Under the pieces are notes generated by a model that was given only the letters and a program-made list of their open reading frames with translations, was not told where the DNA came from and ran no database searches. Made by a program: the position numbers and the translations under genes. A stretch of 64,000 nucleotides of DNA. It comes from Phycisphaerae bacterium (GTDB lineage Bacteria > Planctomycetota > Phycisphaerae > UBA1845 > Fen-1342). The stretch spans positions 1,824,390 to 1,888,389 of the forward strand of contig JAXMAP010000002.1 of NCBI GenBank assembly GCA_046350315.1. The letters are read 5' to 3'. Below, one piece after another: positions 3,343-61,730 of this stretch (position 1 is its first letter; each line of letters starts with the position of its first letter).

Positions 3343-3360
3343 CCTCCGGGAGATGGCGCG

Positions 3361-5079
3361 TTGATAACGGCGATTGAGATCGAGAATTTCAAGGGCATCG
3401 GCCCGCGCCAGCGGATCGAGTTGGCCCCGATCACGTTGCTGTTCGGGGCCAATAGTTCCGGCAAAAGCACGTTCATTCACGCACTCCATTACGCCCTTGA
3501 GGTTCTCCAACGGCACAACTGCGACGCCGAACGCACCGCTTCCGGCGGTGAGTTTATCGATCTGGGCGGATTTCGCAGTTTCGTTCACGGCCGGGATTTG
3601 CAGCGCCGCGTGTCGATGCGGTTCGACCTCGACCTGCGCGAGCACAGCCTGCCGACCTACGGCGAGCGTGAGCCCGACTTCTCGATCTTTGATGAGGGTT
3701 ATGCAGACCGAGTCGAGCGCGCGGCCGTCGAATTTCAGGTCGCCTGGGACCACCAGAGTCAGATGCCGATTGTCTCGCGCTACGCGGTGGAACTGAACGG
3801 CGAGCGGTTTGCCGCGTTGGAAACCGACGCCGGACGCCGCGCAACCGTGCTCGCCGAGCTGAACTGGAACCATCCCGTTTTGCGCGAAGAGGGCGACGAA
3901 CAGGCGGCAGCAGACCAGGAATTGGAGGACCTTCACTCGAAGGTCGTCGTTCTGCATGAAGAGGCAGCTAAGCGCGGTTTGCGCAAGGATCCGCCGCCGC
4001 ATCTCGCATTCGGAATTCTGCATAGTTTGGTGAGCAAGGCGTTCGGCGTCGATGATGCGGATGTACAGCCGACGCCGGGGTGGGGTTTGGCTGGTTTGAT
4101 TGATGCACTCCCGACATGGGGGACAGTGCTCGAACCTGCGCTCCCGCTCTCATCGTCGACCGCGGGCGGCGACTCCGCCTCCAATGCCGACGCCGGCCAG
4201 CCGCGATCACAGTCAGAGATGAATGAAGCGGCCGAGCAATTCGCTGCATTGCTGACCCAACTGCTGGTTGGCCCCGGTGAACTGCTCACGCAAGCGCTCG
4301 CGTCGACTCGATATCTGGGGCCGCTCCGGGAGAAACCCATCCGCTCGCACGACGCCCATCACGTAGGCGACGCGAGGCGTTGGGCCAGCGGACTCGCGGC
4401 CTGGGATGCCCTGTTTCAGCGCGACGCAGCGTTCCTGACGCTCGTCAGCGAGTGGCTCAGTCGATCCGACCGGCTCGGCGCGGGAGTGAGCGTCACGAGC
4501 AGTGAATATCGCGAGATTGCCGTAGACGACCCGATTCTCGTGCAGCTTTCGGGCGGACACGCGTTCGATGACCTTGACTTGAACGATCTTCGTAATCGCC
4601 TTCGGCGAATCCCGATTCGCCGTAGGATCGTTCTGATAGATGAGGCGACCGGCGTCCAGTACCAACCGTTCGATGTCGGCGAAGGAATCTCGCAGCTTCT
4701 CCCCGTCGTTGTGGCACTCCTCGATCCAACGCCGGGCGTCATCGCGATCGAACAACCGGAACTGCACGTGCATCCAGCGATCCAAGTCGGCCTCGGAGAC
4801 CTCATCGCGTTCGGGATGGGGGTGCATGGCGCGACACGAGTAATCGAGACGCACAGCGAACACTTGCTTCTGCGGCTGCTGCGTCGGATCCGTGACACGG
4901 AAGACAACGGGCCTGAACAGCACGAGCATGTGCTTTCGCCGGACGACGTCGCCGTCTGGTACATTGAAGCTGTTGACGGCGTCACACGCGCGACGCGACT
5001 CCGCGTCGATGCCTCTGGCGAATTCCTTGATCGCTGGCCAAGGGGCTTCTTTGAAGAACGTGCTCAGGAACTTTTCTGA
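3361..5079 (+). CDS. AAA_21/ABC-type ATPase with C-terminal DUF3696 (OLD/Septu-PtuA/PARIS-AriA-like ATPase class).
   Basis: N-terminus IEIENFKGIG...LLFGANSSGKST (Walker A). Walker B/D-loop IAIEQPELHVHP. C-terminal ...FLDRWPRGFFEE (DUF3696 hallmark). TTG start 18 nt after the preceding stop. Confidence 0.8.
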   Translation: MITAIEIENFKGIGPRQRIELAPITLLFGANSSGKSTFIHALHYALEVLQRHNCDAERTASGGEFIDLGGFRSFVHGRDLQRRVSMRFDLDLREHSLPTYGEREPDFSIFDEGYADRVERAAVEFQVAWDHQSQMPIVSRYAVELNGERFAALETDAGRRATVLAELNWNHPVLREEGDEQAAADQELEDLHSKVVVLHEEAAKRGLRKDPPPHLAFGILHSLVSKAFGVDDADVQPTPGWGLAGLIDALPTWGTVLEPALPLSSSTAGGDSASNADAGQPRSQSEMNEAAEQFAALLTQLLVGPGELLTQALASTRYLGPLREKPIRSHDAHHVGDARRWASGLAAWDALFQRDAAFLTLVSEWLSRSDRLGAGVSVTSSEYREIAVDDPILVQLSGGHAFDDLDLNDLRNRLRRIPIRRRIVLIDEATGVQYQPFDVGEGISQLLPVVVALLDPTPGVIAIEQPELHVHPAIQVGLGDLIAFGMGVHGATRVIETHSEHLLLRLLRRIRDTEDNGPEQHEHVLSPDDVAVWYIEAVDGVTRATRLRVDASGEFLDRWPRGFFEERAQELF

Positions 5080-6026
5080 TGGTGTACGAGTTCGCCCTGG
5101 AGCCCGCGACCCTCGCGACATGGGAGCAGTTTCGCTATCTAACCGAGAAGTTCGGCGTAGATAACGGGCGCCTCATCGCTCAGTTTCCGAAATCGTGGAA
5201 GAAACTGGTCTATGACGCCTTCGCCGGCGCCGGCGACGTGGAGAAGAAGCGAATCGAGGAACGGCTCCAGCAGGAATCGTTTAGTCGCAAGCTCACACGG
5301 TCGAACCGCACGTACGATTCTGCGCAGGCTTGGCTTCCGAACGCCGAGCGTCAGCAGGAGGGTTCCGACCCTTTCCGCGCCATCATTGCCACGACCAACC
5401 CTAACAACTGCCCGTCCGTTCGCATCGCCTCCGAGCTTGATGAGACGGATCGGCTCTGGTCTGTAAGTCGAGAAGCCCGGATCGCCCGCACTTCGCACGC
5501 GCTAACAGCGGCCGCAGCCCCTCTTGTTCGCTGCAGTAGGGAGCTCCTGATTGTAGATCCGTATTTTGACCCGCAAGTTTCGAGGTTTCTTGACGTCTTT
5601 CAGTCACTGATGCGAGAAGTGTGTGGAGCGCGAAACGTGCCTCGGCGACTGGAGCTCCATTGCTCGAATGCGAGGAGCGGCACCACGGAGCATTGGGAGC
5701 AACAATGTAGCTCACGCCTGAGGCGGTTCATCGGCGCCAACTCCCGACTTCGCGTCGTCAGATGGGCTCAGCGTGCCGGAGGCGAGACGTTTCATGCGCG
5801 ATACATCCTGACCGAGCGCGGGGGACTCCGCTATGACGTTGGGCTCGATGCGGGACCACCTGGTGAAACTACAGACGTAATGCTTCTCGATACGCAGCTG
5901 CACATCGCTCGCTGGAATGACCTTCAGGAAGTTGACGCGAACGGGCGCACGCGCACTCCGGCCTTCGACAAGGTCGATGAGCTACTCATCTCGAACAGCA
6001 GTGCGACGCGCGTTTTCCCTACGTGA
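5079..6026 (+). CDS. Hypothetical protein, translationally coupled partner of the AAA ATPase (candidate effector component, no recognisable domain).
   Basis: Its ATG overlaps the TGA of the ATPase gene by 1 nt. 315-aa ORF with non-repetitive composition. No HNH, Toprim or PD-(D/E)xK motif confidently recognised. Confidence 0.5.
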   Translation: MVYEFALEPATLATWEQFRYLTEKFGVDNGRLIAQFPKSWKKLVYDAFAGAGDVEKKRIEERLQQESFSRKLTRSNRTYDSAQAWLPNAERQQEGSDPFRAIIATTNPNNCPSVRIASELDETDRLWSVSREARIARTSHALTAAAAPLVRCSRELLIVDPYFDPQVSRFLDVFQSLMREVCGARNVPRRLELHCSNARSGTTEHWEQQCSSRLRRFIGANSRLRVVRWAQRAGGETFHARYILTERGGLRYDVGLDAGPPGETTDVMLLDTQLHIARWNDLQEVDANGRTRTPAFDKVDELLISNSSATRVFPT

Positions 6027-6581
6027 CGGGCAATCGCCTTTTGCTTTCCTGAGCGCGGCGCTTTGCAAGACGTTGAGCAATTGCCACTTTATCTGAGCGA
6101 AGTCGCCCAACCCTCGCCTCACGCGCCCCGTGCCCCCCGGCGACACCAGGTCGCGCACGAGGGCTCTCAAGTCTCCGACGATCTGTCCGGCAAGGCGTAC
6201 AGATACCTGCCACCGCCTATCCCGCCCCTGGCGACAGCCAATGCTGTAGCCGGCAAACCTAATTGGCGCGCGACGAACGTCGCGAATTACCGCCTGCTCG
6301 CGCTCGAAGAATTCGTGCCGGCCCTTCGTCGCCAGCAGCACGAAGAACCGCCCGTGCCGCAGGTACTGCATGTTCGCTAGGCCCTGCTTCTTGCGCCGGC
6401 AGCGCGCCCACTTCGAAATCGCGATGCCGTAACGCTCGATGAGTTTCGCATCGACGGCGGCCGGATCCTTGCCCTCCGGGATGGTCCCGGTCACGTAGAA
6501 CCAGTAGCCGTGCGTGATGTACGCGACGGCGAGCTGCTGCACAAACCCCTCGATCGACGTGGCGACGCAACGATACTCCAT
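5982..6581 (-). CDS. Hypothetical protein. N-terminal ~115 aa look protein-like, the C-terminal half is Arg-rich and possibly frameshifted or degenerate.
   Basis: Start MEYRCVATSIEGFVQQLAVAYITHGYWFYVTGTIPEGKDP... is preceded by GGGAGGG 7 nt upstream on the minus strand. The long ORF-table N-terminal extension (to 6815) has no RBS and is rejected. Confidence 0.35.
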   Translation of the reverse strand: MEYRCVATSIEGFVQQLAVAYITHGYWFYVTGTIPEGKDPAAVDAKLIERYGIAISKWARCRRKKQGLANMQYLRHGRFFVLLATKGRHEFFEREQAVIRDVRRAPIRFAGYSIGCRQGRDRRWQVSVRLAGQIVGDLRALVRDLVSPGGTGRVRRGLGDFAQIKWQLLNVLQSAALRKAKGDCPSRRENARRTAVRDE

Positions 6582-6663
6582 GCGATTGTCCCTCCCCTTC
6601 AAATGAGCGGGTTGTTCTGGCACAAACCCGCAAAGCCGTCCTGAACCTCCTTTCGTTCGAGCC

Positions 6664-6885
6664 TCAATCCGAATCGGGCGCCGGCCCGCAGAACTCCAGC
6701 AGGTCGCGAAGTTCTTGCTGGGTCGGCTCCCGGCCAAAATCCTCCCGATAGCACGCTGCGATGCGTGCCCGCACGTCCGGCGGAATCCTGCTCGGCTCCG
6801 GCCAGTACCGTTCATCGAACTCCTCGATGATGTCGGCCGGCCCGTCGCCGATGACGCCGCCGCTGCCCGTGCGCCACCAACCCAT
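6664..6885 (-). CDS. Small hypothetical protein (73 aa from the internal Met).
   Basis: ORF MGWWRTGSGGVIGDGPADIIEEFDERYWPEPSRIPPDVRARIAACYREDFGREPTQQELRDLLEFCGPAPDSD, non-repetitive, co-oriented and immediately upstream of the previous gene. Confidence 0.3.
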   Translation of the reverse strand: MGWWRTGSGGVIGDGPADIIEEFDERYWPEPSRIPPDVRARIAACYREDFGREPTQQELRDLLEFCGPAPDSD

Positions 6886-8495
6886 GCGAATCACCTCCCT
6901 TCGCTCGAAGCCCAATCCTCATGCACGCCGGCCACGCGGTCGCCCGCGTCACCGGCCCGGCGTGAAAACCAGCGCCTTCCATGAAAAACTCGGCCGCTGG
7001 CCGCCATGCCGTGCGCACACTGCTTCTTCCGAAGCTGACACCGCATCGGTGTATCCGAATGTCGTCGCTTCCCCGCCTTCGCGAACCGAATCTTGCTGTC
7101 GGCGTCGCCGCCAGCCCATCGGTTCGCATCACGCGATCGGCCTCCATCCGCACCATGCGGCTAGATTCATCTATTGCAGTTGCGCCCTGCATCAAAAACA
7201 CGATCCCGTCGCTGACCATTGCCGAACCAACTCGCCGAAGTCGCTCGCGAATTTGACGTAGGTCGTCCAGCAACGCGATCAGACCGGGACCGTGGCGGTT
7301 GCGGCCCCGCAACCTCGACGCACCAGCGGATACACCCCGCCTGTGCATCGTCATTCCGCTGCCAAACGACGGCCCTCTCCCGAGGGTCCTCGTTTGACCG
7401 CATTGGCTGTCTTCCGACCCGCCGACACGGGCCGGGGCAGGACTTCCCTGCCCCGGCGCCGCACCGACACATCTGCAAGCATGGGAATTGCTCGTCAGCC
7501 CTTTCGTCGTCGTTCACGCACCCGGCACCACCCGTTGATGCACGAACGGCATCGCGACTGCCTTGCCGCGCTGCCGCCACGCTTCCGCGTGCTCCTACTC
7601 AGGCCCCGCTCCCAGACTCCGGCTTTTCAAGCACCCGCGCGACAAATCGCGGGCACCGGGCATCACCCCGGCCGCCAGAGCCCTTCCCCGGTTAGAACCA
7701 GTCTCCATCTGATCGGTCACGTCGCTTGACCTGGAAACGCCGCGTGCGTCTCTCCCGCACGTCGCGTTCACAACGCTGATCACCCGCCGGCTCCCGCCGG
7801 AAGGCATGTTTACGTCCGCGGGTGCGGACGATTTCGGGGTACGAATCTAGAAGCTCCCCTTACCCTCAGCGCAGGTCTTTCTATCGCGGTTTGGCACCGT
7901 CTCCGATCAAACTCACCCAGAAGCGGTTATCCCGCCTTTCGCAGTTGAGCTTTTCACCGCGCGCCGCTTGAGGCGCGACGCCGAGGCTTATCATCGCCCC
8001 GGTCGCCGGCATCGCTGCCGGCGAGCTCCCTGCCTGGGCTGGCGTTGAGCGGGCCGTCTTCGAGCATGCGCTCGAAAGGTTGGCCCGAACCCCGCAGGGG
8101 GATTAGCCGCCGTGTGGCGGCATCACCCACTTTGACTGACCCGGCTCGCGCTGACGCGCGAGTCTGTCCCGGTCGCCCAGTTTCGATATGCAAAGAACGA
8201 GGCGGTCGCTTTCGACGGGCCGTGCCAAGCGGACAAGCCGCGCCGCGGCCGCATGCGAGCGAATCGCCCATGCGATATGGGATCGAACGGCTGGATTACT
8301 CCAAAAAGCTTGGGATTACTCAGCCGAGCCTCCCTCGCACTGGACGAGCCGGTCTCCCGGCAATCCAGCGCTACGAGCCTCGAACATGGCGGGTGATGAA
8401 GTCCGCCTCCTTAGCCTGATTGGTGGTCAGGTTTACCGGTTGTCCGATCCCACGATTCAGACGCCAGGCCACGCGTTTGCATGATTCTGACGATC

Positions 8496-8516
8496 GTGAA
8501 ACAAACGCTGTTTCAC
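8496..8516. promoter_or_regulatory. Perfect 8-bp-arm palindrome GTGAAACA-N5-TGTTTCAC upstream of the XRE regulator gene, candidate operator.
   Basis: gtgaaacaaacgctgtttcac read directly from the sequence, ~175 bp upstream of the HTH gene start. Confidence 0.3.
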
Positions 8517-8663
8517 AGGCCGAGAGTAGCGCAACGGAAGCTGCAAGTCACGCACCATCAGGTTCGGCCCGTCGCGGGATAGCGGACCCCACCGGTACCA
8601 GGTCCGGCGTGAAGGCTCGCGCGTCACCTGTCCCGCGACACCCCAGCCAGGGCGAAAAAGGGG

Positions 8664-8691
8664 CTTGACTCCAGCCCGCTGAGTGTTACTA
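8664..8691 (+). promoter_or_regulatory. Sigma-70-like promoter (TTGACT-N16-TACTAT) abutting the start codon of the XRE gene, implying a leaderless mRNA.
   Basis: -35 TTGACT and -10 TACTAT with a 16-nt spacer. The -10 hexamer ends 0-1 nt before the ATG. There is no room for a Shine-Dalgarno sequence. Confidence 0.35.
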
Positions 8692-9110
8692 TGTATGCGA
8701 ACAGTGAAAGGAGCGGTGCCTTGGCCCGAAAACCGAGAAGTGCTGACGAGATCGGCGACATTCTTCGCCGCCAGCGGAACGAGGTGCTCGGAAAGGGCCT
8801 GCGCGAAATGGCCCGCCAGCTCGGTACCGCTCCGGCCCACCTTACCGACATCGAACACGGCAACCGCTCGCCGTCCGAAGCCCTGCTGGTCAAGATCGCC
8901 CGCGCCTACGAGATTCCCGAGCCGCAGCTCCGCGCCGCCTGGAGCAAGCCCGATGAAATCGTCGAAGAAATCGCAAGTCAGGATGCGACGGCGGCCGCCA
9001 AAGTGCCCGAACTCCTGCGGTCGGCCCGGAAGTTCACCGAATCGCAATGGAATGCACTGATCGACGCGGCCAAGAAGCTGGCCGCCGAGAAGAAGGGCAA
9101 GGCGGACTGA
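8691..9110 (+). CDS. XRE-family helix-turn-helix transcriptional regulator (ImmR/CapH-like).
   Basis: HTH block LREMARQLGTAPAHLTDIEHGNRSPSEALLVKIARAY. 139 aa. Paired with the downstream ImmA/IrrE peptidase through a TGATGG stop/start overlap. Confidence 0.8.
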   Translation: MYANSERSGALARKPRSADEIGDILRRQRNEVLGKGLREMARQLGTAPAHLTDIEHGNRSPSEALLVKIARAYEIPEPQLRAAWSKPDEIVEEIASQDATAAAKVPELLRSARKFTESQWNALIDAAKKLAAEKKGKAD

Positions 9111-9838
9111 TGGCCGCACGTCGGTACGAGTACGGCAAGCTCTTCGAGCCCGCCAGCGGCGGCAAGCTGATCGAGCGCAAAGCGCGCCGCTCGCTCTCGT
9201 ACTGCATCCACAAACTCGGGTTTTCGGAAGTACCACTCCCCATTCCCGTCGATCGCTGGATCGAAACGGCGTTTGGCATCCGATTCGGCATCGCGGACTT
9301 GTCGCACATCGGTCGCCGTGTGCTGGGTGCGTCGTTCCTGCGCGACCGCGAGATCCTCATCTCCGAGAACGCCCTGTCCAATGAAGGACGCTACCGCTTC
9401 ACGTGTGCTCACGAGTTGGCCCATTTCGTATTGCATGAGCACGTCCGCGACCAGTTCTGCGACGAGGAAGAACCGGAAATCGTTTTCGACGACGAGATTG
9501 AGCGCGAGGCCGACCGGTTCGCCGCGGCGTTCCTGATGCCGGTGAATCTGTTCGAGCGTGAGGTGGTCCTGATTGCCCGGGATATCGGCGCCGACCCGCA
9601 CTGGTGCCTGACCGAGTTAATGCTGGCGAGCGACGAGTCGATCAAATTGTGGCAGAACATCTTCGTGCCGGCGCTCAGCCGTCGCTTCGGCGTCTCCAAG
9701 ACGGCGGCCCTGATTCGCGCGCACGGTCTTCAGCTGATTGGCGACGATCCGCGGACGCTGATTCCGACGCGGCTTTTTTACGACCTGCTGCCCAAGCCCG
9801 TTTCCACCGTTGCTCCGAGGCCAATGGAGGGTGCGTAA
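9110..9838 (+). CDS. ImmA/IrrE-family zinc metallopeptidase (DUF955, CapP-like).
   Basis: HEXXH motif in FTCAHELAHFVLHEH plus the downstream EREADRFAAAFLMP. Start MAARRYEYGK overlaps the XRE stop. Confidence 0.8.
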   Translation: MAARRYEYGKLFEPASGGKLIERKARRSLSYCIHKLGFSEVPLPIPVDRWIETAFGIRFGIADLSHIGRRVLGASFLRDREILISENALSNEGRYRFTCAHELAHFVLHEHVRDQFCDEEEPEIVFDDEIEREADRFAAAFLMPVNLFEREVVLIARDIGADPHWCLTELMLASDESIKLWQNIFVPALSRRFGVSKTAALIRAHGLQLIGDDPRTLIPTRLFYDLLPKPVSTVAPRPMEGA

Positions 9839-9904
9839 GATCGCGGTTTTTTTTGGCCGAAGCGTTCGCTTGCACGCGAACATGAGTACATCGGAGATGA
9901 TAAC

Positions 9905-10195
9905 GTGGTTGTCTACGACCTGACCAACACGGCAGTCGCAACGGCTGACGTTTCGATCCGTCCGCCGACCCAGCCGGAACTGCTTGCGATCACGGTCGCA
10001 TTGCTCTCGTACGAGAACCGCAGCTTTAGCGAGCTGATCGACACGCCGGTCGCAATCACTGACCGCAACCGTCGCCGGCTCGCAGAACTGATCGAGGAGC
10101 GCACGCCGTCGTTGGCCCGCGAGTTTGGTAACCCCACGCATCTGCGGGCGCGCCTGAAACAGTTGGTAGGGCTCCAGATCTTCCGCGAATCCTAG
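9905..10195 (+). CDS. Hypothetical protein (96 aa).
   Basis: ORF co-oriented between the ImmA-like and excisionase-like genes. No motif recognised. Confidence 0.3.
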   Translation: MVVYDLTNTAVATADVSIRPPTQPELLAITVALLSYENRSFSELIDTPVAITDRNRRRLAELIEERTPSLAREFGNPTHLRARLKQLVGLQIFRES

Positions 10196-10202
10196 CACGC
10201 GA

Positions 10203-10589
10203 TTGCGAACGGCTTTCGACGCTATGATCGACCAAACCACTTCAACGCCGTCAAACGCTGACCTCCTGCGGGTGTTGCAGCAGATCGAAGTCCATCTCTC
10301 CGCGCTTCGGGACGGGACGACATCGTCACGGCCCGAGTGGCTTACCGTGGATGAAGTCGCATCGGAACTCAAACTTTCGCGTGACTCGATCGAGCGATTG
10401 ATCGCCTGCGGCCGGCTGCAAGCGGCCAAGGTGACCGGTATCGCCGGACGCGGACGGCGCCGCCGTCTTCGAATTCACCGCGACTGGGTTGATGTGTTTC
10501 TCAGATCGTCGGCGAAGCTCCCGCCCTCTCCACGAAAGACCCGAAACCGTCGTTCGAGCGTCTCCAAGTCGATCGACTTCATCCAGTAG
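10203..10589 (+). CDS. Excisionase-family helix-turn-helix DNA-binding protein (Xis-like).
   Basis: WLTVDEVASELKLSRDSIERLIACGRLQAAKVTG resembles the excisionase/MerR-like HTH. Convergent with and overlapping the 3' end of the integrase gene. Confidence 0.5.
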   Translation: MRTAFDAMIDQTTSTPSNADLLRVLQQIEVHLSALRDGTTSSRPEWLTVDEVASELKLSRDSIERLIACGRLQAAKVTGIAGRGRRRRLRIHRDWVDVFLRSSAKLPPSPRKTRNRRSSVSKSIDFIQ

Positions 10590-11829
10590 CGGCTTGTAGC
10601 GGCGCGGCCGTGCTGGCAGACTCCGGCCAGAGGCGCGATCGAACCAGGTTGACAACCCGCCGTAATCTTTCCAGCCCGATCTCCTCGATGTACACACCAC
10701 TCATCCCGGGGATGCTGTGACCCATGATGCGATGGATGGCGTGCTGGTCGCCGCAATCGTCCGCCCAAGTGCGAAACGTGTGTCGCAATGAATAGAAGCC
10801 CAACCCGTATCGCTTGAGCTTCAGTTCGACCAGCAGCCCGTCAAACCAGTCGCCAAGGCGGTCCACATACACGACTTTCTTGATCTCGCGGCCGTCGCTT
10901 CGCTGCATGATCTGCCGAACCAGCGGGTAGCCCTGTTCGCTACGGAACAGCAGCGGCTTTGCCTCGTCGCTGGCGGCTTTCGGTCGCTCACCCTCAAGCA
11001 CGGTCCGGATCGCCGCGACCGTCTCCGGCCAGAGCGGCACGATTCGGCGCACTGCGGTCTTCGGCCGCTCGAAGTCGATAATCGCTCGGTCCAGGTCGAT
11101 CGCCACGGTGGGCACAGCCGAACAGTCGGTGTTCCCGAACCCGCCGTTGATCCCCAGCAGAATCGCGGCTTTCACGTTCGCGGATGCCGCCTTGAGCAAT
11201 GCGCGAATCTGCTCTGCCGTAAAAAGTTTCTTGCCGTTTTCACGCTCGCGCTTCGCCCGGCTTCGTCGTACGTCCGCGGCCGACGGCTTGGCGAACGCCT
11301 GGCCGTATCGAGGTAGCTGCTCAAGGACTCCATTCTGAACGGCCCATTTGAACATGCCCTGGATGGCGACGATGGTCCGCGTGATTGCATGTACGCCGAG
11401 CGCCTTGTTTCCGCGCAGGCCGCGCGATCCAATTAAGCGCCGGTAGGCTAGGAAGTCATCCGGCCTGAGACTCCTCACCGGTCGCGCTGTGCCAACCGAG
11501 CGAGCAAACTGTCGAATCACACGGCGGCAATCCTCGAACCATCGACCGCCGATCTGCCCGGTCTCGACGCGCTGCATCTGGTATGCGAGGAACTGGTTTC
11601 CCAACTCCTTCACGGTAAACTCGCCTTCCTCTGCCGGGGATGGCTCGCGCCCCGCGTGCAAATCCTCGGCGATGCGTAGATAATTCTGGTGCGCGGCGTC
11701 CGGGTCGGACCAGACGCCGAAGAAGTGCAGCTTGCCGAGGATCTTCTTACACCACTGACCGTTCGGGTGAGCAGTCAGCGGGAAGGAGGGATACGGCTTG
11801 TTCGGCTTGCGACGAGGACGCTTGGCCAT
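10579..11829 (-). CDS. Tyrosine-type site-specific integrase (phage integrase family).
   Basis: C-terminal catalytic region ...LRHTFRTWADDCGDQHAIHRIMGHSIPGMSGVYIEEI (R...HxxR...Y). N-terminus MAKRPRRKPNKPYPSFPLTAHPNGQWCKKI is typical. GGAGG RBS before the ATG at 11829. The upstream ORF-table extension to 11931 is rejected. Confidence 0.85.
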   Translation of the reverse strand: MAKRPRRKPNKPYPSFPLTAHPNGQWCKKILGKLHFFGVWSDPDAAHQNYLRIAEDLHAGREPSPAEEGEFTVKELGNQFLAYQMQRVETGQIGGRWFEDCRRVIRQFARSVGTARPVRSLRPDDFLAYRRLIGSRGLRGNKALGVHAITRTIVAIQGMFKWAVQNGVLEQLPRYGQAFAKPSAADVRRSRAKRERENGKKLFTAEQIRALLKAASANVKAAILLGINGGFGNTDCSAVPTVAIDLDRAIIDFERPKTAVRRIVPLWPETVAAIRTVLEGERPKAASDEAKPLLFRSEQGYPLVRQIMQRSDGREIKKVVYVDRLGDWFDGLLVELKLKRYGLGFYSLRHTFRTWADDCGDQHAIHRIMGHSIPGMSGVYIEEIGLERLRRVVNLVRSRLWPESASTAAPLQAATG

Positions 11830-11970
11830 GACGACAACCTCCGGCGCGCCGCTGCGTTTGTTCGCTCCACGAAACGCGAGCGTAGAGGGCGACCCGGTTG
11901 TCGTCAAGGTTGTCGTCGTGTTTTTCCACAACAGCAGTAAGCAACATAAGTCGTTTATTTACAGATAGTT

Positions 11971-12043
11971 GCCACCGTAGCTCAATTGGCAGAGCAGCGG
12001 TTTTGTAAACCGCAGGTTTCGGGTTCGAGTCCCGACGGTGGCT
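11971..12043 (+). tRNA. tRNA-Thr (anticodon UGU), no encoded CCA.
   Basis: Cloverleaf folded by hand. Acceptor GCCACCG/CGGTGGC, D-stem GCTC/GAGC, anticodon stem GCGGT/ACCGC with loop TTTGTAA (U33, UGU, A37), T-stem TCGGG/CCCGA, T-loop TTCGAGT. Confidence 0.85.
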
Positions 12044-12129: not shown

Positions 12130-13461
12130 TCACGTCAGTCTCGCGCGCTCGCATGCCAGCAGGAACCGCGCGACCTGCAGCTCCCCCCAGTATCGCGCGC
12201 GGCCTGGCCACACGCCGGCGATGAAGCCCTGGTGCCCGCCGTCGCGCGTGATCTGAGGAATGATCCACGGCGAATCGAGCATCTCGTTCGGAATCGACTC
12301 GGCGGGAACGAACGGATCGTCGCGCGACGCGATGACGAGCGTCGGAACGCGGATTCTGGTCATCAGCGGGCCGCAACTGCATCGCGCGTAATAGTCGTCC
12401 ACTCCGGCATAGCCGAACACCTTCGCCGTCACGATGGCGTCGAACTCCTCCATCGTGCGGCAGGTTCGTAATCGCTCCACGTCGATCAGGCCCGGAAATT
12501 GCCGCGCTTTTTCGAGAGCCTGCGGGATCAACAGTTGCATGAAATACCGCGAATACCGACCGCCCAGCGCTCGCGAGATAGTCGCCGCGCATTTGGACAG
12601 ATCGAACGGCGCGGCGACTACGGCCGCGCCGGACACTCGCGCCACCGCCCTCGAATCCTGCACCGGCGCGCCGGAGACCGAAACCTGGGCCTCCGCGCCC
12701 GAAACCGGCGCCACAGCGCGGGAAACCTGCGCCGCCGCACCGCAGACGCTCGCCGCCGCGCCCGAAAGTCCGGACGCTGCGCCGCGCAAACCCAGCAACC
12801 GCGCCGCCACGCTGCCGCCCAGCGAGAAACCGACCAGATAGATCGACCGGACGCCGCCGGCGCGCAGATGCGCGATGCTTGTCTCGACGTCGTCGACGTC
12901 GCCGGCTGAATACGTCCTGTGCGTGCGGTTCATTCGGCCGCCGCAGCTTCGGAATTCCATCACCGCAACGTTCCAGCCGTGCGGCGCGAGTAGCGCGGTC
13001 AGGCCGTGAATCCACGGCGCCTGCGCGGAACTGCCCAGCCCGTGGAGCAGCAGCGCGGTCGGCCCTAACGGATCGCCGTGCAGTCGATGAAGCCACAGTT
13101 CGTCGCCGTCGGGCGTCGGAACTGCCGTCGATTCAAACGCGGCTCTTCGCACACGCCGGAAGAGGTACGTCCAGATGGTCTGGCCATGCGCGTTTCGCAG
13201 CCACCAGGCGGAGCGAAACGGGTGGCGCGACAATTCGGCGAGAATTTCGTTCTTGAAACGTCTCGCCGCGGACGCGTCGCGCGTCGCATCGGCGGGCACG
13301 CGCGCTCCGTCAGAGCCGCGACCGTAAGGGAGCGGTCGGTCCGGAGCGGCGAGCGTCGTCGGGCTCGCCGGGATGGCCTCGACGCCCAGGCCGACCGCTC
13401 CCTTACGGTCGCGGCTCTGACCAGACTCAGGCTTCGCGGATTCCGCCCTTCGCAACGGCAT
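12130..13461 (-). CDS. Alpha/beta hydrolase, YheT-like family. The true start is probably downstream of the annotated one (GTG within ...VPADATRD...).
   Basis: GDELWLHRLHG...LLLHGLGSS...HGWNVAVMEFRSCGG...YLVGFSLGGSV (nucleophile elbow GxSxG) ...ASRDDPFVP...GGHQGF. The 5' ~150 nt of the ORF is the translation of a REP-like palindrome (RPLPYGRGS), so the annotated Met is unlikely to be the real start. Confidence 0.65.
   Translation of the reverse strand: MPLRRAESAKPESGQSRDRKGAVGLGVEAIPASPTTLAAPDRPLPYGRGSDGARVPADATRDASAARRFKNEILAELSRHPFRSAWWLRNAHGQTIWTYLFRRVRRAAFESTAVPTPDGDELWLHRLHGDPLGPTALLLHGLGSSAQAPWIHGLTALLAPHGWNVAVMEFRSCGGRMNRTHRTYSAGDVDDVETSIAHLRAGGVRSIYLVGFSLGGSVAARLLGLRGAASGLSGAAASVCGAAAQVSRAVAPVSGAEAQVSVSGAPVQDSRAVARVSGAAVVAAPFDLSKCAATISRALGGRYSRYFMQLLIPQALEKARQFPGLIDVERLRTCRTMEEFDAIVTAKVFGYAGVDDYYARCSCGPLMTRIRVPTLVIASRDDPFVPAESIPNEMLDSPWIIPQITRDGGHQGFIAGVWPGRARYWGELQVARFLLACERARLT
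12640..12800. repeat. Degenerate ~27-30-bp tandem repeats (minisatellite) inside the hydrolase CDS, encoding a low-complexity Gly/Ala/Ser/Val insert.
   Basis: Recurring units cgcgccggagaccgaaacc, cgcgcccgaaaccggcgcc, cgcgcccgaaagtccggacgc. Protein insert GAASGLSGAAASVCGAAAQVSRAVAPVSGAEAQVSVSGAPVQDSRAVARVSGAAVV. Confidence 0.5.
13311..13418. repeat. REP/MITE-like palindromic element, copy A (29-bp perfect inverted repeat with ~50-nt loop).
   Basis: cagagccgcgaccgtaagggagcggtcgg ... ccgaccgctcccttacggtcgcggctctg. Shares the core gaccgtaagggagcgg/ccgctcccttacggtc with four other loci. Confidence 0.7.
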
Positions 13462-15446: not shown

Positions 15447-15544
15447 TCGTCCAATCTGCAGCGCCGCGCGCGATCGCGGGGCGGCATTCTAGTGTGCCGT
15501 CTCAGAAATTCGCATAGGCGTAGGCGTGGATGGCAGTGGCTCAC

Positions 15545-15695
15545 TTTCGCATGCGACGCCGGAAAAACGCTCGACATTGAGGCCCGACCGTAAGGGAGCG
15601 GCTTTCTGCTCGGCGCAAAAGACCCCTCCCTTACGGTCGGGGCTCGGCTGGGGCGCTCCTTCGCGAGACCGAGCCACTACCGAGTGGAGAGTGCG
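15545..15695. repeat. REP/MITE-like palindromic element, copy B.
   Basis: gcatgcgacgccggaaaaacgctcgacattgaggcccgaccgtaagggagcgg...ccctcccttacggtcgggg...gagccactaccgagtgg. ~85% identical over ~145 bp to copy E (61575-61730). Confidence 0.7.
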
Positions 15696-15937
15696 GGCGT
15701 CTCGACCGCGCGCGGGCGAGACGCTCGCACTCCCGACGCGGCCGCCCGATACCCGCTCGCGATGCACGAGTGGGCAATCCGTCGCAGCGAGCGGGGAAGC
15801 GTTCGGACCGCTGCCGTACCCACTTCCGCCCATTCCGCAAAACCGCCGAAACCGATCGACCGAGAACTCTGAATTGTAACTTCCTGTCATTGCGCCAGTT
15901 AGGGCAGTTCGTTAATTTTGTGATGCAACCTCAATGC

Positions 15938-21986: not shown

Positions 21987-23114
21987 TTGCGGCCCGGGAT
22001 GCCGGACCAGGCCAGCATTTCTTGGATTCCGGACAGGTTGGAGGAGAAAGTCATGCGTTTCACGTCTCTTGGATTGCGCGCTGTCACGGTGCTGGGTTCG
22101 CTTGGGTTCGCAGCCGGCGCCTACGGCGCGGGGATCACGCTTCAGCAGACGGGCGCGCCATTCAACAACCCCATCGGCGTGGCGTACAACCCGACGAACA
22201 CTTCGCTCATCGTCACGTCGAACTACTCGGGCGGCTCGCCGAACTCGCTGATGCGAATCGACCAGTTCGGAAACACGTCGCCGTGGTCTTCGGCCAGCGG
22301 CTACCCGGGCGAGCGCTATCTCGACATCCCGCGCGCCGTCAATCAGCCGTCGGGTTGGACTAGCGGCGAGACGTTCACGGGAAACGGTCAGGTCGGGCAG
22401 ATCGCTCGCATTTCCGCCAATGGCGCGACCGTGAACTCGAACTGGGTCACGCTCCCGGGCGAAACGGGCCTGCCCGCAGGTCAGTTGCGATTCGACAACA
22501 CCGGAATCTTCAATAATGACCTGATTGTCACCACGACCAGCGGCAACGTCTGGCAGGTCAGCTCGACCGGCAGCCCGACATTGCTGGCGAACCTCGGCAC
22601 CAGCGCCGATTTCGAGGGTCTGGCCGTCGTTCCCAACAATCCAACACGCTACGGTCCGCTCGCCGGGCGGATCATCGTCGGGCATGAGGGGAGCACGGAT
22701 CTCTGGACCGTTGACCCCATCGGCAATGTGAGCCAGTTTCCCAACATCCTGCCCGCACAGTGCGAGGGTTTGCACGTGATCCCCGCCAATGAACACTTCG
22801 TAGGCGTCGATTACCTTGGAGGCTCGATTCTCTGGGCCAATCAGTCCGAATTCGCGCCCTTCGTCGGCGACATCATGGTCGTCAGCGAGATCATCGGCGC
22901 GAACCCTGGCAACCCCAGCGGACTCAACCGGCTGCTTTGGAACGGCTCAGGCTCGTTCGGCTTCTTCACAACATCCCCCATTGGTTTGACGCAGAATTCG
23001 CTTCTGCCCCAACTCTGGGAGGGCTCGACGTTCGCGCCGATCGTCGTGCCCGAGCCCGGCACTGCGATCCTGTTGAGCCTCGCCGGCTTGCTCGCCGCGC
23101 GTCGGTGGCGCTAG
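21987..23114 (+). CDS. Secreted PEP-CTERM-anchored protein (beta-propeller-like, Gly/Ser/Thr/Asn-rich).
   Basis: N-terminal signal peptide (MRFTSLGLRAVTVLGSLGFAAGAYG). C-terminal PEP-CTERM sorting signal VVPEPGTAILLSLAGLLAARRWR. Confidence 0.7.
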   Translation: MRPGMPDQASISWIPDRLEEKVMRFTSLGLRAVTVLGSLGFAAGAYGAGITLQQTGAPFNNPIGVAYNPTNTSLIVTSNYSGGSPNSLMRIDQFGNTSPWSSASGYPGERYLDIPRAVNQPSGWTSGETFTGNGQVGQIARISANGATVNSNWVTLPGETGLPAGQLRFDNTGIFNNDLIVTTTSGNVWQVSSTGSPTLLANLGTSADFEGLAVVPNNPTRYGPLAGRIIVGHEGSTDLWTVDPIGNVSQFPNILPAQCEGLHVIPANEHFVGVDYLGGSILWANQSEFAPFVGDIMVVSEIIGANPGNPSGLNRLLWNGSGSFGFFTTSPIGLTQNSLLPQLWEGSTFAPIVVPEPGTAILLSLAGLLAARRWR

Positions 23115-23127
23115 TGTAGTTGTTCGG

Positions 23128-23215
23128 ACTGTTTGCATCTTATTCTGGGTGGGGCGGGCATCTTGCCCGCCCGTGTCTTGCTGCCGGGCGGGCAAGATGC
23201 CCGCCCCACCCATGA
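23128..23215. terminator. Large perfect nested inverted repeat between convergent genes, candidate bidirectional terminator / cruciform-forming element.
   Basis: tgggtggggcgggcatcttgcccgcccg-[11-nt loop]-cgggcgggcaagatgcccgccccaccca is a 28-bp perfect stem. Each arm is itself a hairpin (gggcgggca-tct-tgcccgccc). There is no U-tract. Confidence 0.45.
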
Positions 23216-23372
23216 TGCACCAATTCTGACCAACTACACTTGTCCCTTAGAAATTCTATTTGGCTCACAGCGCATCAGAACGCGAAGCGCAGGCGAGCGC
23301 AATCCGCAGCCGCGCTCGCTTGCGTCGCGTTCTGACCGCATGGCGCGCATTGGCGCCCGTTGATCAGTTGCC

Positions 23373-40354: not shown

Positions 40355-40440
40355 AACTTCTTGTTATCTGGTCATTTACTCGCCCGCGTCGGCATCACGA
40401 CAACCCTTGGAACAGCCCGTTGACAAACGCTGCTAACCGA

Positions 40441-40535
40441 GCCCCGACCGAAAGGGAGCGGACGGGGCGACGGCCGAAATCGCCTGAAATCTCAGTTCGT
40501 TCCGACAGCCGGGCGACCCCCCTTATGGTCGGGGT
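40441..40535. repeat. REP/MITE-like palindromic element, divergent copy C, immediately next to tRNA-Lys.
   Basis: ccccgaccgaaagggagcgg ... ccccccttatggtcgggg. Confidence 0.5.
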
Positions 40536-41054
40536 TCCGTTGAGTGTTTTTTTCGACTGACTGCCAACGCTACTACGCTTCCGGTCGCGCTCGATCGCGT
40601 CAATCCTTCCCAGTGCCGATTCTCACGCCGAGTGCGAACCGGTCGCGACGGTAGCCGCGCTGGCTTCTATGGTCAAGGAGCATATCGATCGCTGCATTCG
40701 AGTACCGGGCTGCCCCAGGCCGCACGCCGATCGAACGGTCTTTCGTGATGACTGGTGGGCGGCGCTGATTGCATTGGCTACCGGGTTCTGGTCGATCGCC
40801 ACGAGACTATTCCGAGACGAGGCGAAGCGGTCGACACCAATCGGCTGGGGCCGCCGACCGAAGCAGAGCGCCGACTCGGCTACGGCGATCTGGTGGAACC
40901 TGCTCAGCAAACGGGGCGGCGACTGCTCACAGGCCCTGGGCGAACTGCGGAATCGCGCGTTCCGCTGACCGCGCCTCCCGCTATGATGCCGCGGATACGA
41001 GCGGCTTGACGCCCGATCTTGCGTCGAGTTCGCGCCGCGCAGGACGACCCAATC

Positions 41055-46419: not shown

Positions 46420-46477
46420 GGCATTCTCCTATCGCGGGGATACAGCGCGAGTGCCAGCCCAGTGCGATCCAGCATTC

Positions 46478-46640
46478 GGGTAGTGGCTCAGTTTCGCGAA
46501 GGAACTCCCCAGCCGAGCCCCGACCGTAAGGGAGGGGTTTCTTGCGACCGCAGAAGGCCGCTCCCTTACGGTCGGGCCTCGGTGTCGAGCGTTTTCCCGG
46601 CGTCGCAAGCGAAACCGAGCCACTACCAGCATCTTGGAAG
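46478..46640. repeat. REP/MITE-like palindromic element, copy D, with ~20-bp terminal inverted repeats.
   Basis: TIRs gggtagtggctcagtttcgc / gcgaaaccgagccactaccagc flank the core hairpin cccgaccgtaagggagg...ccgctcccttacggtcggg. Confidence 0.7.
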
Positions 46641-61317: not shown

Positions 61318-61574
61318 CTAGCCGCGACTCGCGCGTGCGGCGACCGCGGTGTCGCGTTAGCGATCCGGGGGCCGAGACACCCGGCGACATTGCGGATCGG
61401 CGTCAAGTTCGTGGGCGGAACAATGCCATTCGCGGACATTCGCGGTCGTCTGGCAGGGCGCCGACCGCTTGACCGGCCGCTTGCGCTCGTGGTTCGGATG
61501 GATTTCGGCAGTCTCTTGCAATCGCGGATGGGGACCCCAAACTTGACGAGTACCCCATGATCTGAACTCGGGAT

Positions 61575-61730
61575 AGTGGACTAATTTCGCATGCGACGCC
61601 GGAAAAACGCTGGACACCGAGGCCCGACCGTAAGGGAGCGGCCTTCTGCTCATCGCAAGAGACCCCTCCCTTACAGTCGGGACTCGGCGGGGGAGTTCCA
61701 TCGCGATACTGAGCCACTACCGAACTCGGC
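61575..61730. repeat. REP/MITE-like palindromic element, copy E.
   Basis: gcatgcgacgccggaaaaacgctggacaccgaggcccgaccgtaagggagcgg...ccctcccttacagtcggg...gagccactaccgaactcgg. Confidence 0.7.

What the first reader, a model, noticed from the sequence alone, without database searches (positions are those of the whole stretch)
13311..13418. Family of ~150-bp palindromic REP/MITE-like elements, five copies in 64 kb
A conserved hairpin core (g/cCCGACCGTAAGGGAGCGG ... CCGCTCCCTTACGGTCGGg) is seen at 13311-13418 (29-bp perfect stem), 15545-15695, 40441-40535 (divergent), 46478-46640 and 61575-61730. Copies B and E share ~85% identity over ~145 bp, including flanks gcatgcgacgccggaaaaacgct.. and ..gagccactaccgaa. 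Copy D has ~20-bp terminal inverted repeats (ggtagtggctcagtttcgc), a MITE-like organisation. Copies sit at gene boundaries next to hcp, tRNA-Lys, the Top6A-like gene and the LysM gene. One sits in the 5' end of a hydrolase ORF. Translating them yields the recurring peptide RPLPYGRGS / PLRSGLG in many spurious ORFs of the six-frame table. Such elements can act as transcription attenuators, mRNA stabilisers, IHF/gyrase sites or targets of a REP-associated tyrosine transposase.
Basis: seen in the sequence. Interest (0 to 1): 0.55.

Follow-up and report, generated by a model that had tools for sequence, protein, structure and literature searches.

The report
REP hairpin doublets inside MITE shells
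Five intergenic palindromes in this planctomycete (Phycisphaerae-like) window are inverted pairs of a short hairpin repeat already described as the DNA partner of a rare "class 3" IS200-like tyrosine transposase. Three of them ride inside a 150-bp miniature transposon, so this is real selfish DNA of a known kind in a mildly unusual nested arrangement.

Summary
The core arm CCGACCGTAAGGGAGSGG occurs 9 times in the window against 0.12 expected, as five inverted pairs, all between genes.

There are two layers, not one 150-bp family.

1. **REP arms.** Each arm is a roughly 26-nt imperfect hairpin with a CnGA foot, a 4-5 bp stem, tandem G·A/A·G mismatches, a CC/GG pair and a GTAA loop. It matches the "class 3 TnpA_Y1" REP sequences published for Legionella and Solibacter (Quentin et al. 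2018).
2. **Transposase link.** In other genomes I found the same arms, in the same orientation, flanking about 170-aa Y1/HUH transposase genes (NHVH and Y-V-x-x-x-Q motifs). Copies A and C are bare doublets, like REPINs.
3. **MITE shells.** Copies B, D and E are 87-89% identical. They carry the doublet inside a shell with 19-bp terminal inverted repeats and 8-bp target-site duplications, perfect in E. The same repeats and duplications bound about 145-bp elements with a different core in peat metagenomes.

No transposase gene lies in the window, and the shell's autonomous partner was not found.

Verdict: a new member of a known kind. The nesting of a REP doublet in a transposon shell is a modest new variant. 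Interest is low to moderate.

The parts
13309..13421 (.). Copy A: bare REP doublet (REPIN-like), 31-bp perfect arms and a 51-nt spacer, between the TPR gene stop (13479) and the hydrolase gene
   Evidence: dG -59 to -60 kcal/mol, z about -10.8; I2
13311..13339 (+). A left arm, CAGA foot + GCCGC-GA-CC-GTAA-GG-GA-GCGGT hairpin
   Evidence: The first 27 nt are identical to the left arm of the REPtron inside alaS in L208. From the first G of the foot onward (20 nt) it is identical to the Legionella class 3 REP CCGAGCCGCGACCGTAAGGGAGCGGA, whose foot is CCGA.
13391..13419 (-). A right arm, the same sequence inverted
15532..15681 (+). Element B: 150-bp MITE shell carrying a REP doublet, in the divergent TPR/hcp intergenic region
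15524..15531 (.). B left target-site duplication, GCGTGGAT
   Evidence: 6 of 8 match to the right copy (chance of >=6/8 is 0.007)
15532..15550 (+). B left terminal inverted repeat, GGCAGTGGCTCACTTTCGC
15577..15603 (+). B REP arm of the GCGG type (foot TTGA, a deviation from CnGA)
15621..15647 (-). B REP arm of the GGGG type (foot CCGA)
15663..15681 (-). B right terminal inverted repeat
15682..15689 (.). B right target-site duplication, GAGTGGAG
40437..40539 (.). Copy C: degenerate bare REP doublet with a 55-nt spacer, next to tRNA-Lys (40280-40355, -)
   Evidence: z about -1.2, decayed
40437..40461 (+). C left arm, CCGAGCCCCGACCGAAAGGGAGCGG
40517..40539 (-). C right arm; its reverse complement is CGGAACCCCGACCATAAGGGGGG (degenerate)
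46479..46627 (-). Element D: 149-bp MITE shell + REP doublet, opposite orientation to B and E, between the MerR/B12-binding gene stop and the top6A start
   Evidence: (z -8 to -8.9)
46471..46478 (.). D target-site duplication copy, AGCATTCG
   Evidence: 5 of 8 match to AGCATCTT (chance of >=5/8 is 0.037)
46479..46497 (+). D terminal inverted repeat, GGTAGTGGCTCAGTTTCGC
46513..46537 (+). D REP arm of the GGGG type (foot CCGA)
46556..46582 (-). D REP arm of the GCGG type (foot CCGA)
46609..46627 (-). D terminal inverted repeat
46628..46635 (.). D target-site duplication copy, AGCATCTT
61572..61721 (+). Element E: 150-bp MITE shell + REP doublet, in the divergent mdh/LysM intergenic region
61564..61571 (.). 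E left target-site duplication, GAACTCGG
   Evidence: perfect 8 of 8 (chance 1.4e-4)
61572..61590 (+). E left terminal inverted repeat, GATAGTGGACTAATTTCGC (decayed)
61617..61643 (+). E REP arm of the GCGG type (foot CCGA)
61661..61687 (-). E REP arm of the GGGG type (foot CCGA, 2 mismatches)
61703..61721 (-). E right terminal inverted repeat
61722..61729 (.). E right target-site duplication, GAACTCGG

Best explanation
There are two nested kinds of non-autonomous mobile DNA.

**Layer 1: REP arms.** Every arm is a REP of the type associated with class 3 TnpA_Y1, an IS200/IS605-superfamily HUH/tyrosine transposase. It is a roughly 26-nt imperfect hairpin made of a CnGA foot, one purine, a 4-5 bp stem, tandem G·A/A·G mismatches, a 2-bp CC/GG stem and a GNRA-like GTAA loop. 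Two arms face each other with their feet outward. That is the arrangement in which they flank the transposase gene in a full 'REPtron'. Each doublet is therefore a REPtron without its gene, the analogue of a REPIN.

Inferred mechanism: on single-stranded DNA, at the lagging-strand template, a TnpA dimer supplied in trans binds the hairpins. It uses the foot tetranucleotide to position cleavage and moves the doublet by the peel-and-paste route of IS608 and TnpA_REP, without target duplication. Copies A and C are such bare doublets, and C is decaying.

**Layer 2: MITE shells.** Copies B, D and E are one MITE family. An ancestral doublet sits in the centre of a shell of about 150 bp with 19-bp terminal inverted repeats (GGTAGTGGCTCAGTTTCGC). 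The whole unit was spread by a transposase that makes staggered cuts, presumably of DDE type, leaving 8-bp target-site duplications.

**Shown here:** the sequence identity to published class 3 REPs, the association of the arms with the gene in other genomes, and the inverted repeats and target duplications.

**Inferred:** the catalytic mechanism, that this genome still encodes either enzyme, and any host function.
For: **The arms are the published class 3 REP**
- Enrichment is far beyond chance.
- From the first G of the foot onward, 20 nt of the copy A arm are identical to the Legionella class 3 REP CCGAGCCGCGACCGTAAGGGAGCGGA, which has the same predicted structure. The arm also matches Solibacter CAGAGCCGCGACCGTCAGGGAGCG, differing only in the tetraloop (GTAA versus GTCA), in Table S1 of PMC6006769.
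- That paper describes the CnGA foot and the distribution across Planctomycetes, Acidobacteria and Proteobacteria.
- 9 of the 10 window arms have a CnGA foot, read directly from the sequence.
- The structural pattern (stem, GA, 2 bp, GNNA, 2 bp, GA, stem) occurs 5 times in the window against 0.15 in shuffles.

**The arms flank Y1 transposase genes elsewhere**
- In L002, two inverted exact arms bracket a Y1_Tnp domain (PF01797, 27.7 bits) with NHVH and YVLRRQ motifs.
- In L205 and L208 the canonical arms flank the gene, feet outward.
- L111, L112, L113, L202, L203 and L204 carry lineage-specific variants. These keep the hairpin by compensatory changes, such as CC/GG to GC/GC.
- The transposase family has an invariant N-H-x-H motif (V in at least 90%), a conserved W, and Y...Q. 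It has 2,701 representatives at E<=1e-10.
- Its nearest solved relatives are IS200/IS605 TnpAs, at weak E-values.

**B, D and E are transposon shells**
- They are 87-89% identical over their full length.
- The 8-bp flanking repeats match 8/8 for E, 6/8 for B and 5/8 for D. Chance values are 1.4e-4, 0.007 and 0.037.
- A related copy in a Phycisphaerae MAG (L027) has a perfect ACTCGGTT duplication.
- 24 metagenomic elements of 90-147 bp (most about 145) have the same inverted repeat. Eleven of them have perfect 8-bp duplications, and their central hairpin is different.

**Setting**
- All five copies lie between genes.
Against: - No Y1 or DDE transposase gene is present in the 64-kb window. Trans-mobilisation in this genome is therefore assumed, not shown.
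- No autonomous insertion sequence with the shell's inverted repeats was found in any fetched locus or in plasmids.
- The duplications of B and D are imperfect, and the element boundaries were set after inspection.
- The left arm of B has the foot TTGA, not CnGA.
- Copy C folds no better than shuffles.
- To my knowledge class 3 TnpA has never been tested biochemically. PMC6006769 itself calls for experiments.
Its taxonomic counts and the list of 'covarying' variants are therefore biased samples.
Confidence: 0.85

Rival explanations
1. All five copies belong to one MITE family moved only by a DDE transposase. The conserved hairpin is just MITE interior with no link to a Y1 transposase.
For: B, D and E have inverted repeats and 8-bp target duplications. 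No Y1 gene lies in the window.
Against: - A and C have the arms but no inverted repeats, no duplications and unrelated spacers.
- The same arm occurs alone or in pairs in more than 109 loci of other genomes without the shell.
- It directly flanks Y1 transposase genes.
- Shells with the same inverted repeat exist with a different core.
Confidence: 0.05
2. The hairpins are primarily host cis-acting RNA or DNA signals, such as an intrinsic terminator, an mRNA 3' stabiliser, an attenuator or a protein-binding site. Function, not mobility, would then explain the near-identical sequence across phyla.
For: - The arm is a very stable GNRA-capped hairpin.
- The exact 18-mer is shared by Planctomycetota, Acidobacteriota and others and by Legionella.
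- Copies A and D lie between co-directional genes.
- REPs of E. coli are known to have been co-opted in this way (background reviewed in PMC3733652).
Against: - No Rfam family matches at the gathering score, and only noise appears at E<10.
- No T-tract or terminator-like site lies at A or B.
- Copies sit in divergent promoter regions (B, E). They occur on both strands as pairs, inside ORFs in frame and next to unrelated genes.
- Sequence variants track transposase lineages.
- This rival is compatible with secondary co-option, so it competes only as the primary cause.
Confidence: 0.08
3. They are classical REPINs of the GTAG type, mobilised by a group 2/3 (class 2) RAYT.
For: - The doublet architecture is that of a REPIN.
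- The shell repeat contains GTAG (GGTAGTGG...).
- A related Phycisphaerae MAG has a class 2 RAYT next to its top6A gene (L102).
Against: - The arms have a CnGA foot, not GT[AG]G, and match the class 3 list rather than the class 2 lists of PMC6006769.
- The L102 RAYT is flanked by a different REP, GTAGGGCGGGTTYCACCCGCC.
- The GTAG in the shell repeat is not followed by a hairpin. It is shared by shell elements that show target duplications, which Y1 transposition does not make.
Confidence: 0.02

Closest known systems
Class 3 TnpA_Y1-associated REP-like sequences ('REPtrons' of Planctomycetes, Acidobacteria, Legionella); Quentin et al., BMC Genomics 2018, PMC6006769
   Same: Same sequence, or at most one to a few differences. 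Same CnGA foot, same predicted hairpin with two 2-nt internal loops and a 4-nt loop, and same phyla. High copy number is reported (about 600 in Solibacter usitatus). The cognate gene family was recovered here with arms in the same orientation.
   Different: The window holds only gene-less doublets. Three of them are embedded in a shell with inverted repeats and target duplications, which that paper does not describe. I found no mention there of the near-invariance of the arm across phyla.
REPINs and RAYTs (Bertels & Rainey 2011, PMC3116915); E. coli REP/BIME with TnpA_REP
   Same: Two inverted short imperfect hairpins form a larger hairpin. The element is non-coding, dispersed between genes and thought to be moved in trans by a Y1/HUH transposase that is normally single-copy.
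   Different: The foot is CnGA rather than GT[AG]G. The enzyme belongs to a different Y1 class, with a Y-x4-Q motif rather than YI..NP. Its profile matches TnpA_REP (4er8) only at E=0.64.
Bacterial MITEs (e.g. Correia/NEMIS, RUP, ERIC; reviewed in PMC3184786 and PMC3733652)
   Same: B, D and E are about 150 bp and non-coding, with 19-bp terminal inverted repeats and 8-bp target-site duplications. They occur in multiple copies and fold into long hairpins.
   Different: The centre is a REP doublet belonging to a different (Y1) transposition system. The same shell carries a different core in other lineages. The parent insertion sequence is unknown.
REP dimers nested in larger palindromes (Anabaena GTAG-15, Halothiobacillus CGTC-1; Di Nocera et al. 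2013, PMC3733652)
   Same: REP doublets sit in the middle of a longer conserved palindrome.
   Different: In those cases the outer palindrome was never found without the REP, and no target duplications were reported. Here the shell exists independently with other cores and has duplications.
Rickettsia palindromic elements (RPEs) and intragenic REPs
   Same: Stop-free palindromic repeats that can sit in frame inside protein genes. Class 3 arms do the same in valS, alaS and addB of other genomes.
   Different: In the window itself all copies are intergenic. In the aaRS cases the whole transposase ORF is embedded, not only the repeat.

Membership tests
Class 3 TnpA_Y1 REP (Quentin et al. 2018) | Short atypical hairpin: stem, 2-nt internal loops on both sides, 2-bp upper stem, 4-nt loop | tested here: met
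   The structural pattern occurs 5 times in the window against 0.15 in shuffles. It has the same dot-bracket structure as Table S1 of PMC6006769. The GCGG-type arms of B, D and E need one bulged C, read from the sequence.
Class 3 TnpA_Y1 REP (Quentin et al. 2018) | 5' tetranucleotide foot CnGA | tested here: met
   9 of 10 arms: CAGA x2, CCGA x6, CGGA x1. The left arm of B has TTGA.
Class 3 TnpA_Y1 REP (Quentin et al. 2018) | Many dispersed, mostly intergenic copies in the genome | tested here: inconclusive
   There are five doublets in 64 kb, all intergenic. The rest of the genome is not available, and the source contig was not found.
Class 3 TnpA_Y1 REP (Quentin et al. 2018) | The same REPs flank a class 3 tnpA gene (HuH NHVH; Y-x4-Q) in the same genome | not testable with these tools
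   None is present in the window. The feature is met in other genomes: L002, L205, L208, L203 and, with variant arms, L111, L112, L113, L202, L204.
Class 3 TnpA_Y1 REP (Quentin et al. 2018) | Binding and cleavage of the hairpin by the transposase | not testable with these tools
   This needs biochemistry. The paper itself reports none.
Classical REPIN / GTAG REP with class 2 RAYT | GT[AG]G tetranucleotide at the 5' foot of each REP | tested here: not met
   The feet are CnGA. True GTAG/GTGG-tagged REP doublets exist elsewhere in the window at 27438-27499 and 23151-23207, with different sequences.
Classical REPIN / GTAG REP with class 2 RAYT | Two inverted REPs separated by a short spacer that form one long hairpin | tested here: met
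   All five copies do so.
MITE (for B, D, E) | Terminal inverted repeats of 15-30 bp | tested here: met
   The repeats are 19 bp, with 5 matches against 0.01 expected.
MITE (for B, D, E) | Target-site duplication of fixed length | tested here: met
   The duplication is 8 bp: E 8/8, B 6/8, D 5/8. L027 has 8/8. 11 of 24 metagenomic elements with the same inverted repeat have 8/8.
MITE (for B, D, E) | No coding capacity, under 300 bp, several copies | tested here: met
   The elements are 149-150 bp. There are three copies at 87-89% identity.
MITE (for B, D, E) | A parent insertion sequence with the same inverted repeats encoding the transposase | tested here: inconclusive
   None was found in the window, in 86 metagenome loci or in plasmids. 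The whole genome could not be searched.
Intrinsic terminator | G+C-rich hairpin immediately followed by a T-run | tested here: not met
   No terminator-like site lies at A or B. A T-run near C lies about 11 nt beyond the stem.
Any Rfam RNA family | Covariance-model score at or above the gathering threshold | tested here: not met
   The window scan finds only 2 tRNAs and a c-di-AMP riboswitch. The permissive scan of B gives only sub-threshold miRNA-like noise.

The most novel reading that the evidence does not exclude
The 150-bp elements are a modular MITE chassis with ends GGTAGTGGCTCAGTTTCGC and an 8-bp duplication. Its central hairpin is exchangeable between lineages, and here it has captured a Y1-type REP doublet. 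One short sequence could then be propagated by two unrelated transposition machineries: DDE cut-and-paste for the shell and HUH peel-and-paste for the core.

There is also a wider point. The class 3 REP/TnpA module is stop-free. In other genomes it sits in frame inside essential genes (alaS at one conserved site, valS, addB), so the transposase may be made as an internal domain of a host enzyme. The near-invariance of the arm from Legionella to Acidobacteria to Phycisphaerae would then reflect either frequent horizontal spread or an unusually rigid enzyme-DNA code.
Probability: 0.35. Interest if true: 0.55.

Novelty: new member of a known kind. Interest (0 to 1): 0.3.

Why it matters
For annotation, these palindromes generate spurious ORFs and over-extended gene starts (peptides such as SRDRKGAV and RPLPYGRGS) and should be masked.

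For biology, they add a Phycisphaerae population to a little-studied third class of REP/Y1-transposase systems. The protein family is much larger in metagenomes (2,701 representatives at E<=1e-10) than the 24 proteins known in 2018.

The nesting of a Y1-type REP doublet inside a shell with inverted repeats and target duplications gives a concrete case for asking how the two kinds of miniature element exchange parts. The in-frame REPtrons inside aminoacyl-tRNA synthetase genes, seen in related organisms, are the most interesting lead, but they lie outside this window.

Tried and rejected
- **Rfam.** Gathering and permissive thresholds gave nothing for the elements.
- **Halorientalis hits.** The two hits to the 18-mer lie inside archaeal RNase P RNA and are chance.
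- **Source contig.** Exact look-up of the Hcp protein was not on record. No fetched locus is the source genome. The closest are Phycisphaerae MAGs, with mdh at 79% and top6A at 71% nucleotide identity.
- **Transposase in the window.**
  - Regex searches for HUH and Y motifs were negative.
  - Pfam on 40 plausible ORFs was negative.
- **Recurrent neighbour gene.** Clustering ORFs around the motif in 110 loci gave only unrelated housekeeping families such as SDR, outer-membrane barrels and response regulators.
- **Parent insertion sequence of the shell.** No long pair of inverted repeats was found in the metagenome loci. ORF clusters there reflect orthologous loci only. The plasmid BLAST gave chance hits only.
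- **Literature.** Searches for the exact core and shell-repeat strings found nothing relevant.
- **Viral contigs.** One chance-level arm and two weak 28% protein matches give no support for a phage vector.
- **GTAG reading of the shell repeat.** Rejected, because elements with this repeat make target duplications.
- **Covariance model.** I did not build one, because approximate matching already showed no further copies in the window.
Full report
**1. Observation**

The five sites are real.
- The core CCGACCGTAAGGGAGCGG, allowing up to 3 mismatches, occurs 9 times in the window. Shuffles give 0.12, and none of 100 reached 9. A 15-mer version adds the second arm of copy C.
- The matches form five inverted pairs.
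- A second motif, GGTAGTGGCTCAGTTTCGC, occurs 5 times against 0.01 expected. It bounds only three of the sites.
- Reading the sequence and folding it gives these limits:
  - A is 13309-13421, with 31-bp perfect arms and a 51-nt spacer.
  - B is 15532-15681.
  - C is 40437-40539 and is decayed, folding no better than shuffles.
  - D is 46479-46627, inverted relative to B and E.
  - E is 61572-61721.
- B, D and E are 87-89% identical over their whole length. A and C share only the arms.
- All five lie between genes:
  - A lies after the stop of a TPR gene and before an alpha/beta hydrolase.
  - B lies between the TPR gene and hcp.
  - C lies next to tRNA-Lys.
  - D lies between a MerR/B12-binding regulator and top6A.
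  - E lies between mdh and a LysM gene.
- The hydrolase ORF that appears to contain A is probably over-extended. Its Pfam domain starts at residue 137, and the repeat encodes residues 14-50. This last point is inference.

**2. What a single arm is**

Each arm can fold on its own. It has four or five C/G pairs, tandem G·A/A·G mismatches, a CC/GG pair and a GTAA tetraloop. It is preceded by GAG or GAA and, one base further out, by a tetranucleotide of the form CnGA.
- This structural pattern occurs 5 times in the window against 0.15 in Markov shuffles.
- The two arms of B, D and E are not identical. One ends in GCGG and the other in GGGG, so they are heterodimers.

**3. Distribution**

- By record title, 64 are Planctomycetota, 31 are Acidobacteriota and 14 are other or unclassified.
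- This is a truncated sample selected on an exact match, so the counts are only indicative.
- Most hits are single arms preceded by the conserved GA[AG]CC. Some are doublets with spacers of 7-90 nt, and some are tandem.
- Neighbouring genes are unrelated housekeeping genes.
- Two archaeal hits lie inside RNase P RNA and are coincidences.
- The window itself is most similar to Phycisphaerae MAGs.

**4. Identification**

Quentin et al. 2018 (PMC6006769) divided Y1/HUH transposases into classes.
- Their class 3 is found mainly in Planctomycetes, Acidobacteria and Proteobacteria.
[quoted passage not shown] About 600 copies are reported in Solibacter usitatus.
- Their Table S1 lists CCGAGCCGCGACCGTAAGGGAGCGGA for Legionella pneumophila, with structure .....((((..((....))..)))). 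It also lists CAGAGCCGCGACCGTCAGGGAGCG and AGCCGCGACCGTCAGGGAGCGGTCG for Solibacter.
- The arm of copy A, CAGAGCCGCGACCGTAAGGGAGCGGTCGG, is the same sequence. The core of the finding is therefore a known REP type.

**5. Independent test of the transposase link**

- *L002, a Phycisphaeraceae MAG.* Two exact arms, feet outward and 577 bp apart, bracket a Y1_Tnp domain (PF01797, 27.7 bits). It carries NHVH and YVLRRQ motifs.
- *Family size.* Its homologues are about 170-aa proteins from Phycisphaerae, Planctomycetaceae and Gemmataceae, often labelled RayT.
  - An alignment shows an invariant N-H-x-H motif (V in at least 90%), a conserved W, and Y-V-x-x-x-Q. This is the class 3 signature.
  - A full HMMER search finds 2,701 representatives at E<=1e-10.
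  - The nearest solved structures are IS200/IS605 TnpAs at weak E-values. TnpA_REP scores only E=0.64.
- *Flanking DNA of nine homologue genes, fetched separately.*
  - L205 and L208 have the canonical arms on both sides, feet outward. The left arm of L208 is identical to copy A over 27 nt.
  - L203 has a GTGA-loop version.
  - L111 has 13 tandem copies of GAACCGCGAGCGTCAGCGAGCGG upstream and an inverted copy downstream.
  - L112, L113, L202 and L204 have further variants.
  - The variants keep the hairpin through paired changes such as CC/GG to GC/GC. This supports a structural constraint and co-variation with the enzyme lineage.
  - L115 has a repeat I could not fit to the scheme.
- *The window.* It contains no Y1 gene. 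That is expected if the enzyme has one or a few copies per genome, but it leaves activity in this genome unproven.

**6. The 150-bp elements are a second layer**

- *Flanking repeats in the window.* B, D and E are bounded by the 19-bp inverted repeat and by 8-bp direct repeats of flanking DNA:
  - GAACTCGG/GAACTCGG for E;
  - GCGTGGAT/GAGTGGAG for B;
  - AGCATTCG/AGCATCTT for D.
- *Chance levels.* Chance of at least that many matches is 1.4e-4, 0.007 and 0.037. The boundaries were fixed after looking, so these values are somewhat generous.
- *Related copy.* L027 has a perfect ACTCGGTT duplication.
- *Metagenome scan with the inverted repeat.* It gave 86 loci. None has the REP core.
  - 24 are elements of 90-147 bp (most about 145) with the same ends and similar sub-terminal sequence. 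Eleven have perfect 8-bp duplications.
  - Their central hairpin is different, built on CCACCAAGGACACGAAG.
- *What this means.* Target duplications are the mark of staggered-cut, DDE-type insertion and are not made by IS200/IS605-type enzymes (established knowledge). B, D and E are therefore true MITEs whose interior happens to be a class 3 REP doublet. The shell is a wider family with exchangeable cores.
- *Parent element.* The parent insertion sequence was not found.

**7. Mechanism**

- *Shown.* Sequence identity to class 3 REPs, association of the arms with the gene and shared orientation in other genomes, and the inverted repeats and target duplications.
- *Inferred from IS608 TnpA and E. 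coli TnpA_REP.* The hairpin is recognised on single-stranded DNA, the foot tetranucleotide helps to place cleavage, and a doublet moves as a unit without duplication.
- *Inferred.* The B/D/E ancestor formed once and was then spread by another transposase.
- *Host roles.* Termination and mRNA stabilisation are possible secondary uses, but nothing here supports them.

**8. Novelty and score**

- The arms are a new population of a described kind.
- REP dimers inside larger palindromes have precedents (PMC3733652). Those cases had no independent shell and no reported duplications, so the nesting here is a modest new variant.
- I score interest at 0.3.

**9. Side lead, outside the window**

- In L002 the whole REPtron is in frame inside valS.
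- Among the best 150 family representatives, several are long host proteins with the transposase embedded between REP-encoded peptides such as SRDRKGAV ... PLPHGRGS:
  - five are AlaRS, interrupted at the same Pfam position 262/263;
  - three are ValRS;
  - one is AddB.
- The DNA of one alaS case confirms the arms.
- In-frame REPs are known. I found no report of an in-frame transposase of this kind, but that search was shallow.

Noticed in passing
L002:641-4765 (valS), REPtron at about 1945-2545; L208:1001-4444 (alaS), REPtron at about 1863-2465; proteins P0121, P0122, P0124, P0128, P0135 (AlaRS), P0156, P0166, P0176 (ValRS), P0164 (AddB): The class 3 Y1 transposase, together with its two REP arms, is embedded in frame and without stop codons inside essential host genes. 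In five AlaRS representatives the insertion is at the same site (Pfam tRNA-synt_2c position 262/263). The HUH and Y motifs are retained. This may mean the transposase is expressed as an internal domain of the host enzyme.
   Followed up: partly
L116-L195 (e.g. L134:4982-5126, L172:8095-8239, L119, L124, L165, L128): A MITE family of about 145 bp, seen mainly in peat and soil metagenome contigs, has the same terminal repeat GGTAGTGGCTCAGTTTCGC and perfect 8-bp target duplications. Its central hairpin is different (CCACCAAGGACACGAAG...). No parent insertion sequence was found.
   Followed up: partly
window 23113-23240: A second nested palindromic element. An outer inverted repeat (AGTGTAGTTGTTCGGACTG...) encloses a perfect doublet of a GTGG-tagged hairpin, GGGGCGGGCATCTTGCCCGCCC (23151-23172 / 23186-23207). 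It lies just after the stop of the gene at 21987-23114. The architecture is the same as B, D and E but with a different REP family.
   Followed up: partly
window 27438-27499 (within palindrome 27416-27521): A doublet of a classical GTAG-tagged REP, GTAGCGTCGGACG-TCTG-CGTCCGACG. Two one-mismatch matches to its first 12 nt lie at 49770 and 55237. The genome therefore seems to host at least three REP families.
   Followed up: partly
window 15680-15741: A 62-bp G+C-rich palindrome (GAGTGCGGGCGTCTCG...CGAGACGCTCGCACTC) immediately to the right of element B, overlapping its right target duplication.
   Followed up: no
window 33229-33399 (-): A c-di-AMP (ydaO-type) riboswitch scoring 68.5 bits, upstream of an SPFH/Band-7 gene at 30968-33034 (-).
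   Followed up: no
window 1-12043: A tyrosine integrase (10579-11931, -) abuts tRNA-Thr (11971-12043, +). To its left is a patchily lower-G+C stretch (0.59-0.65) with DUF2130 and an IrrE/M78 peptidase gene. This is probably an integrated element at the tRNA.
   Followed up: no
L102:1340-2780: In a related Phycisphaerae MAG, the intergenic slot beside the top6A orthologue holds a class 2 RAYT gene (2189-2734, -). It is flanked by GTAG REPs (GTAGGGCGGGTTYCACCCGCC). In the window, element D occupies the equivalent slot.
   Followed up: partly
L111:9316-9925: A tandem array of 13 class 3 REP variants (CAYAGAACCGCGAGCGTCAGCGAGCGGAT, period mostly 49 nt) lies directly upstream of the tnpA gene, with one inverted copy downstream.
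   Followed up: no
L054:7187-7617 and L078:1592-2011: Archaeal RNase P RNA of two Halorientalis species contains the exact 18-mer GAACCCCGACCGTAAGGGAGGGG. The RNase P gene itself is unrelated, so this looks like a coincidence. No fold of the 18-mer within that RNA was examined.
   Followed up: yes
window 45265-46419 (-): A bacterial Top6A/Spo11-like gene with TP6A_N and Toprim domains. I did not check whether a Top6B partner is adjacent.
   Followed up: no
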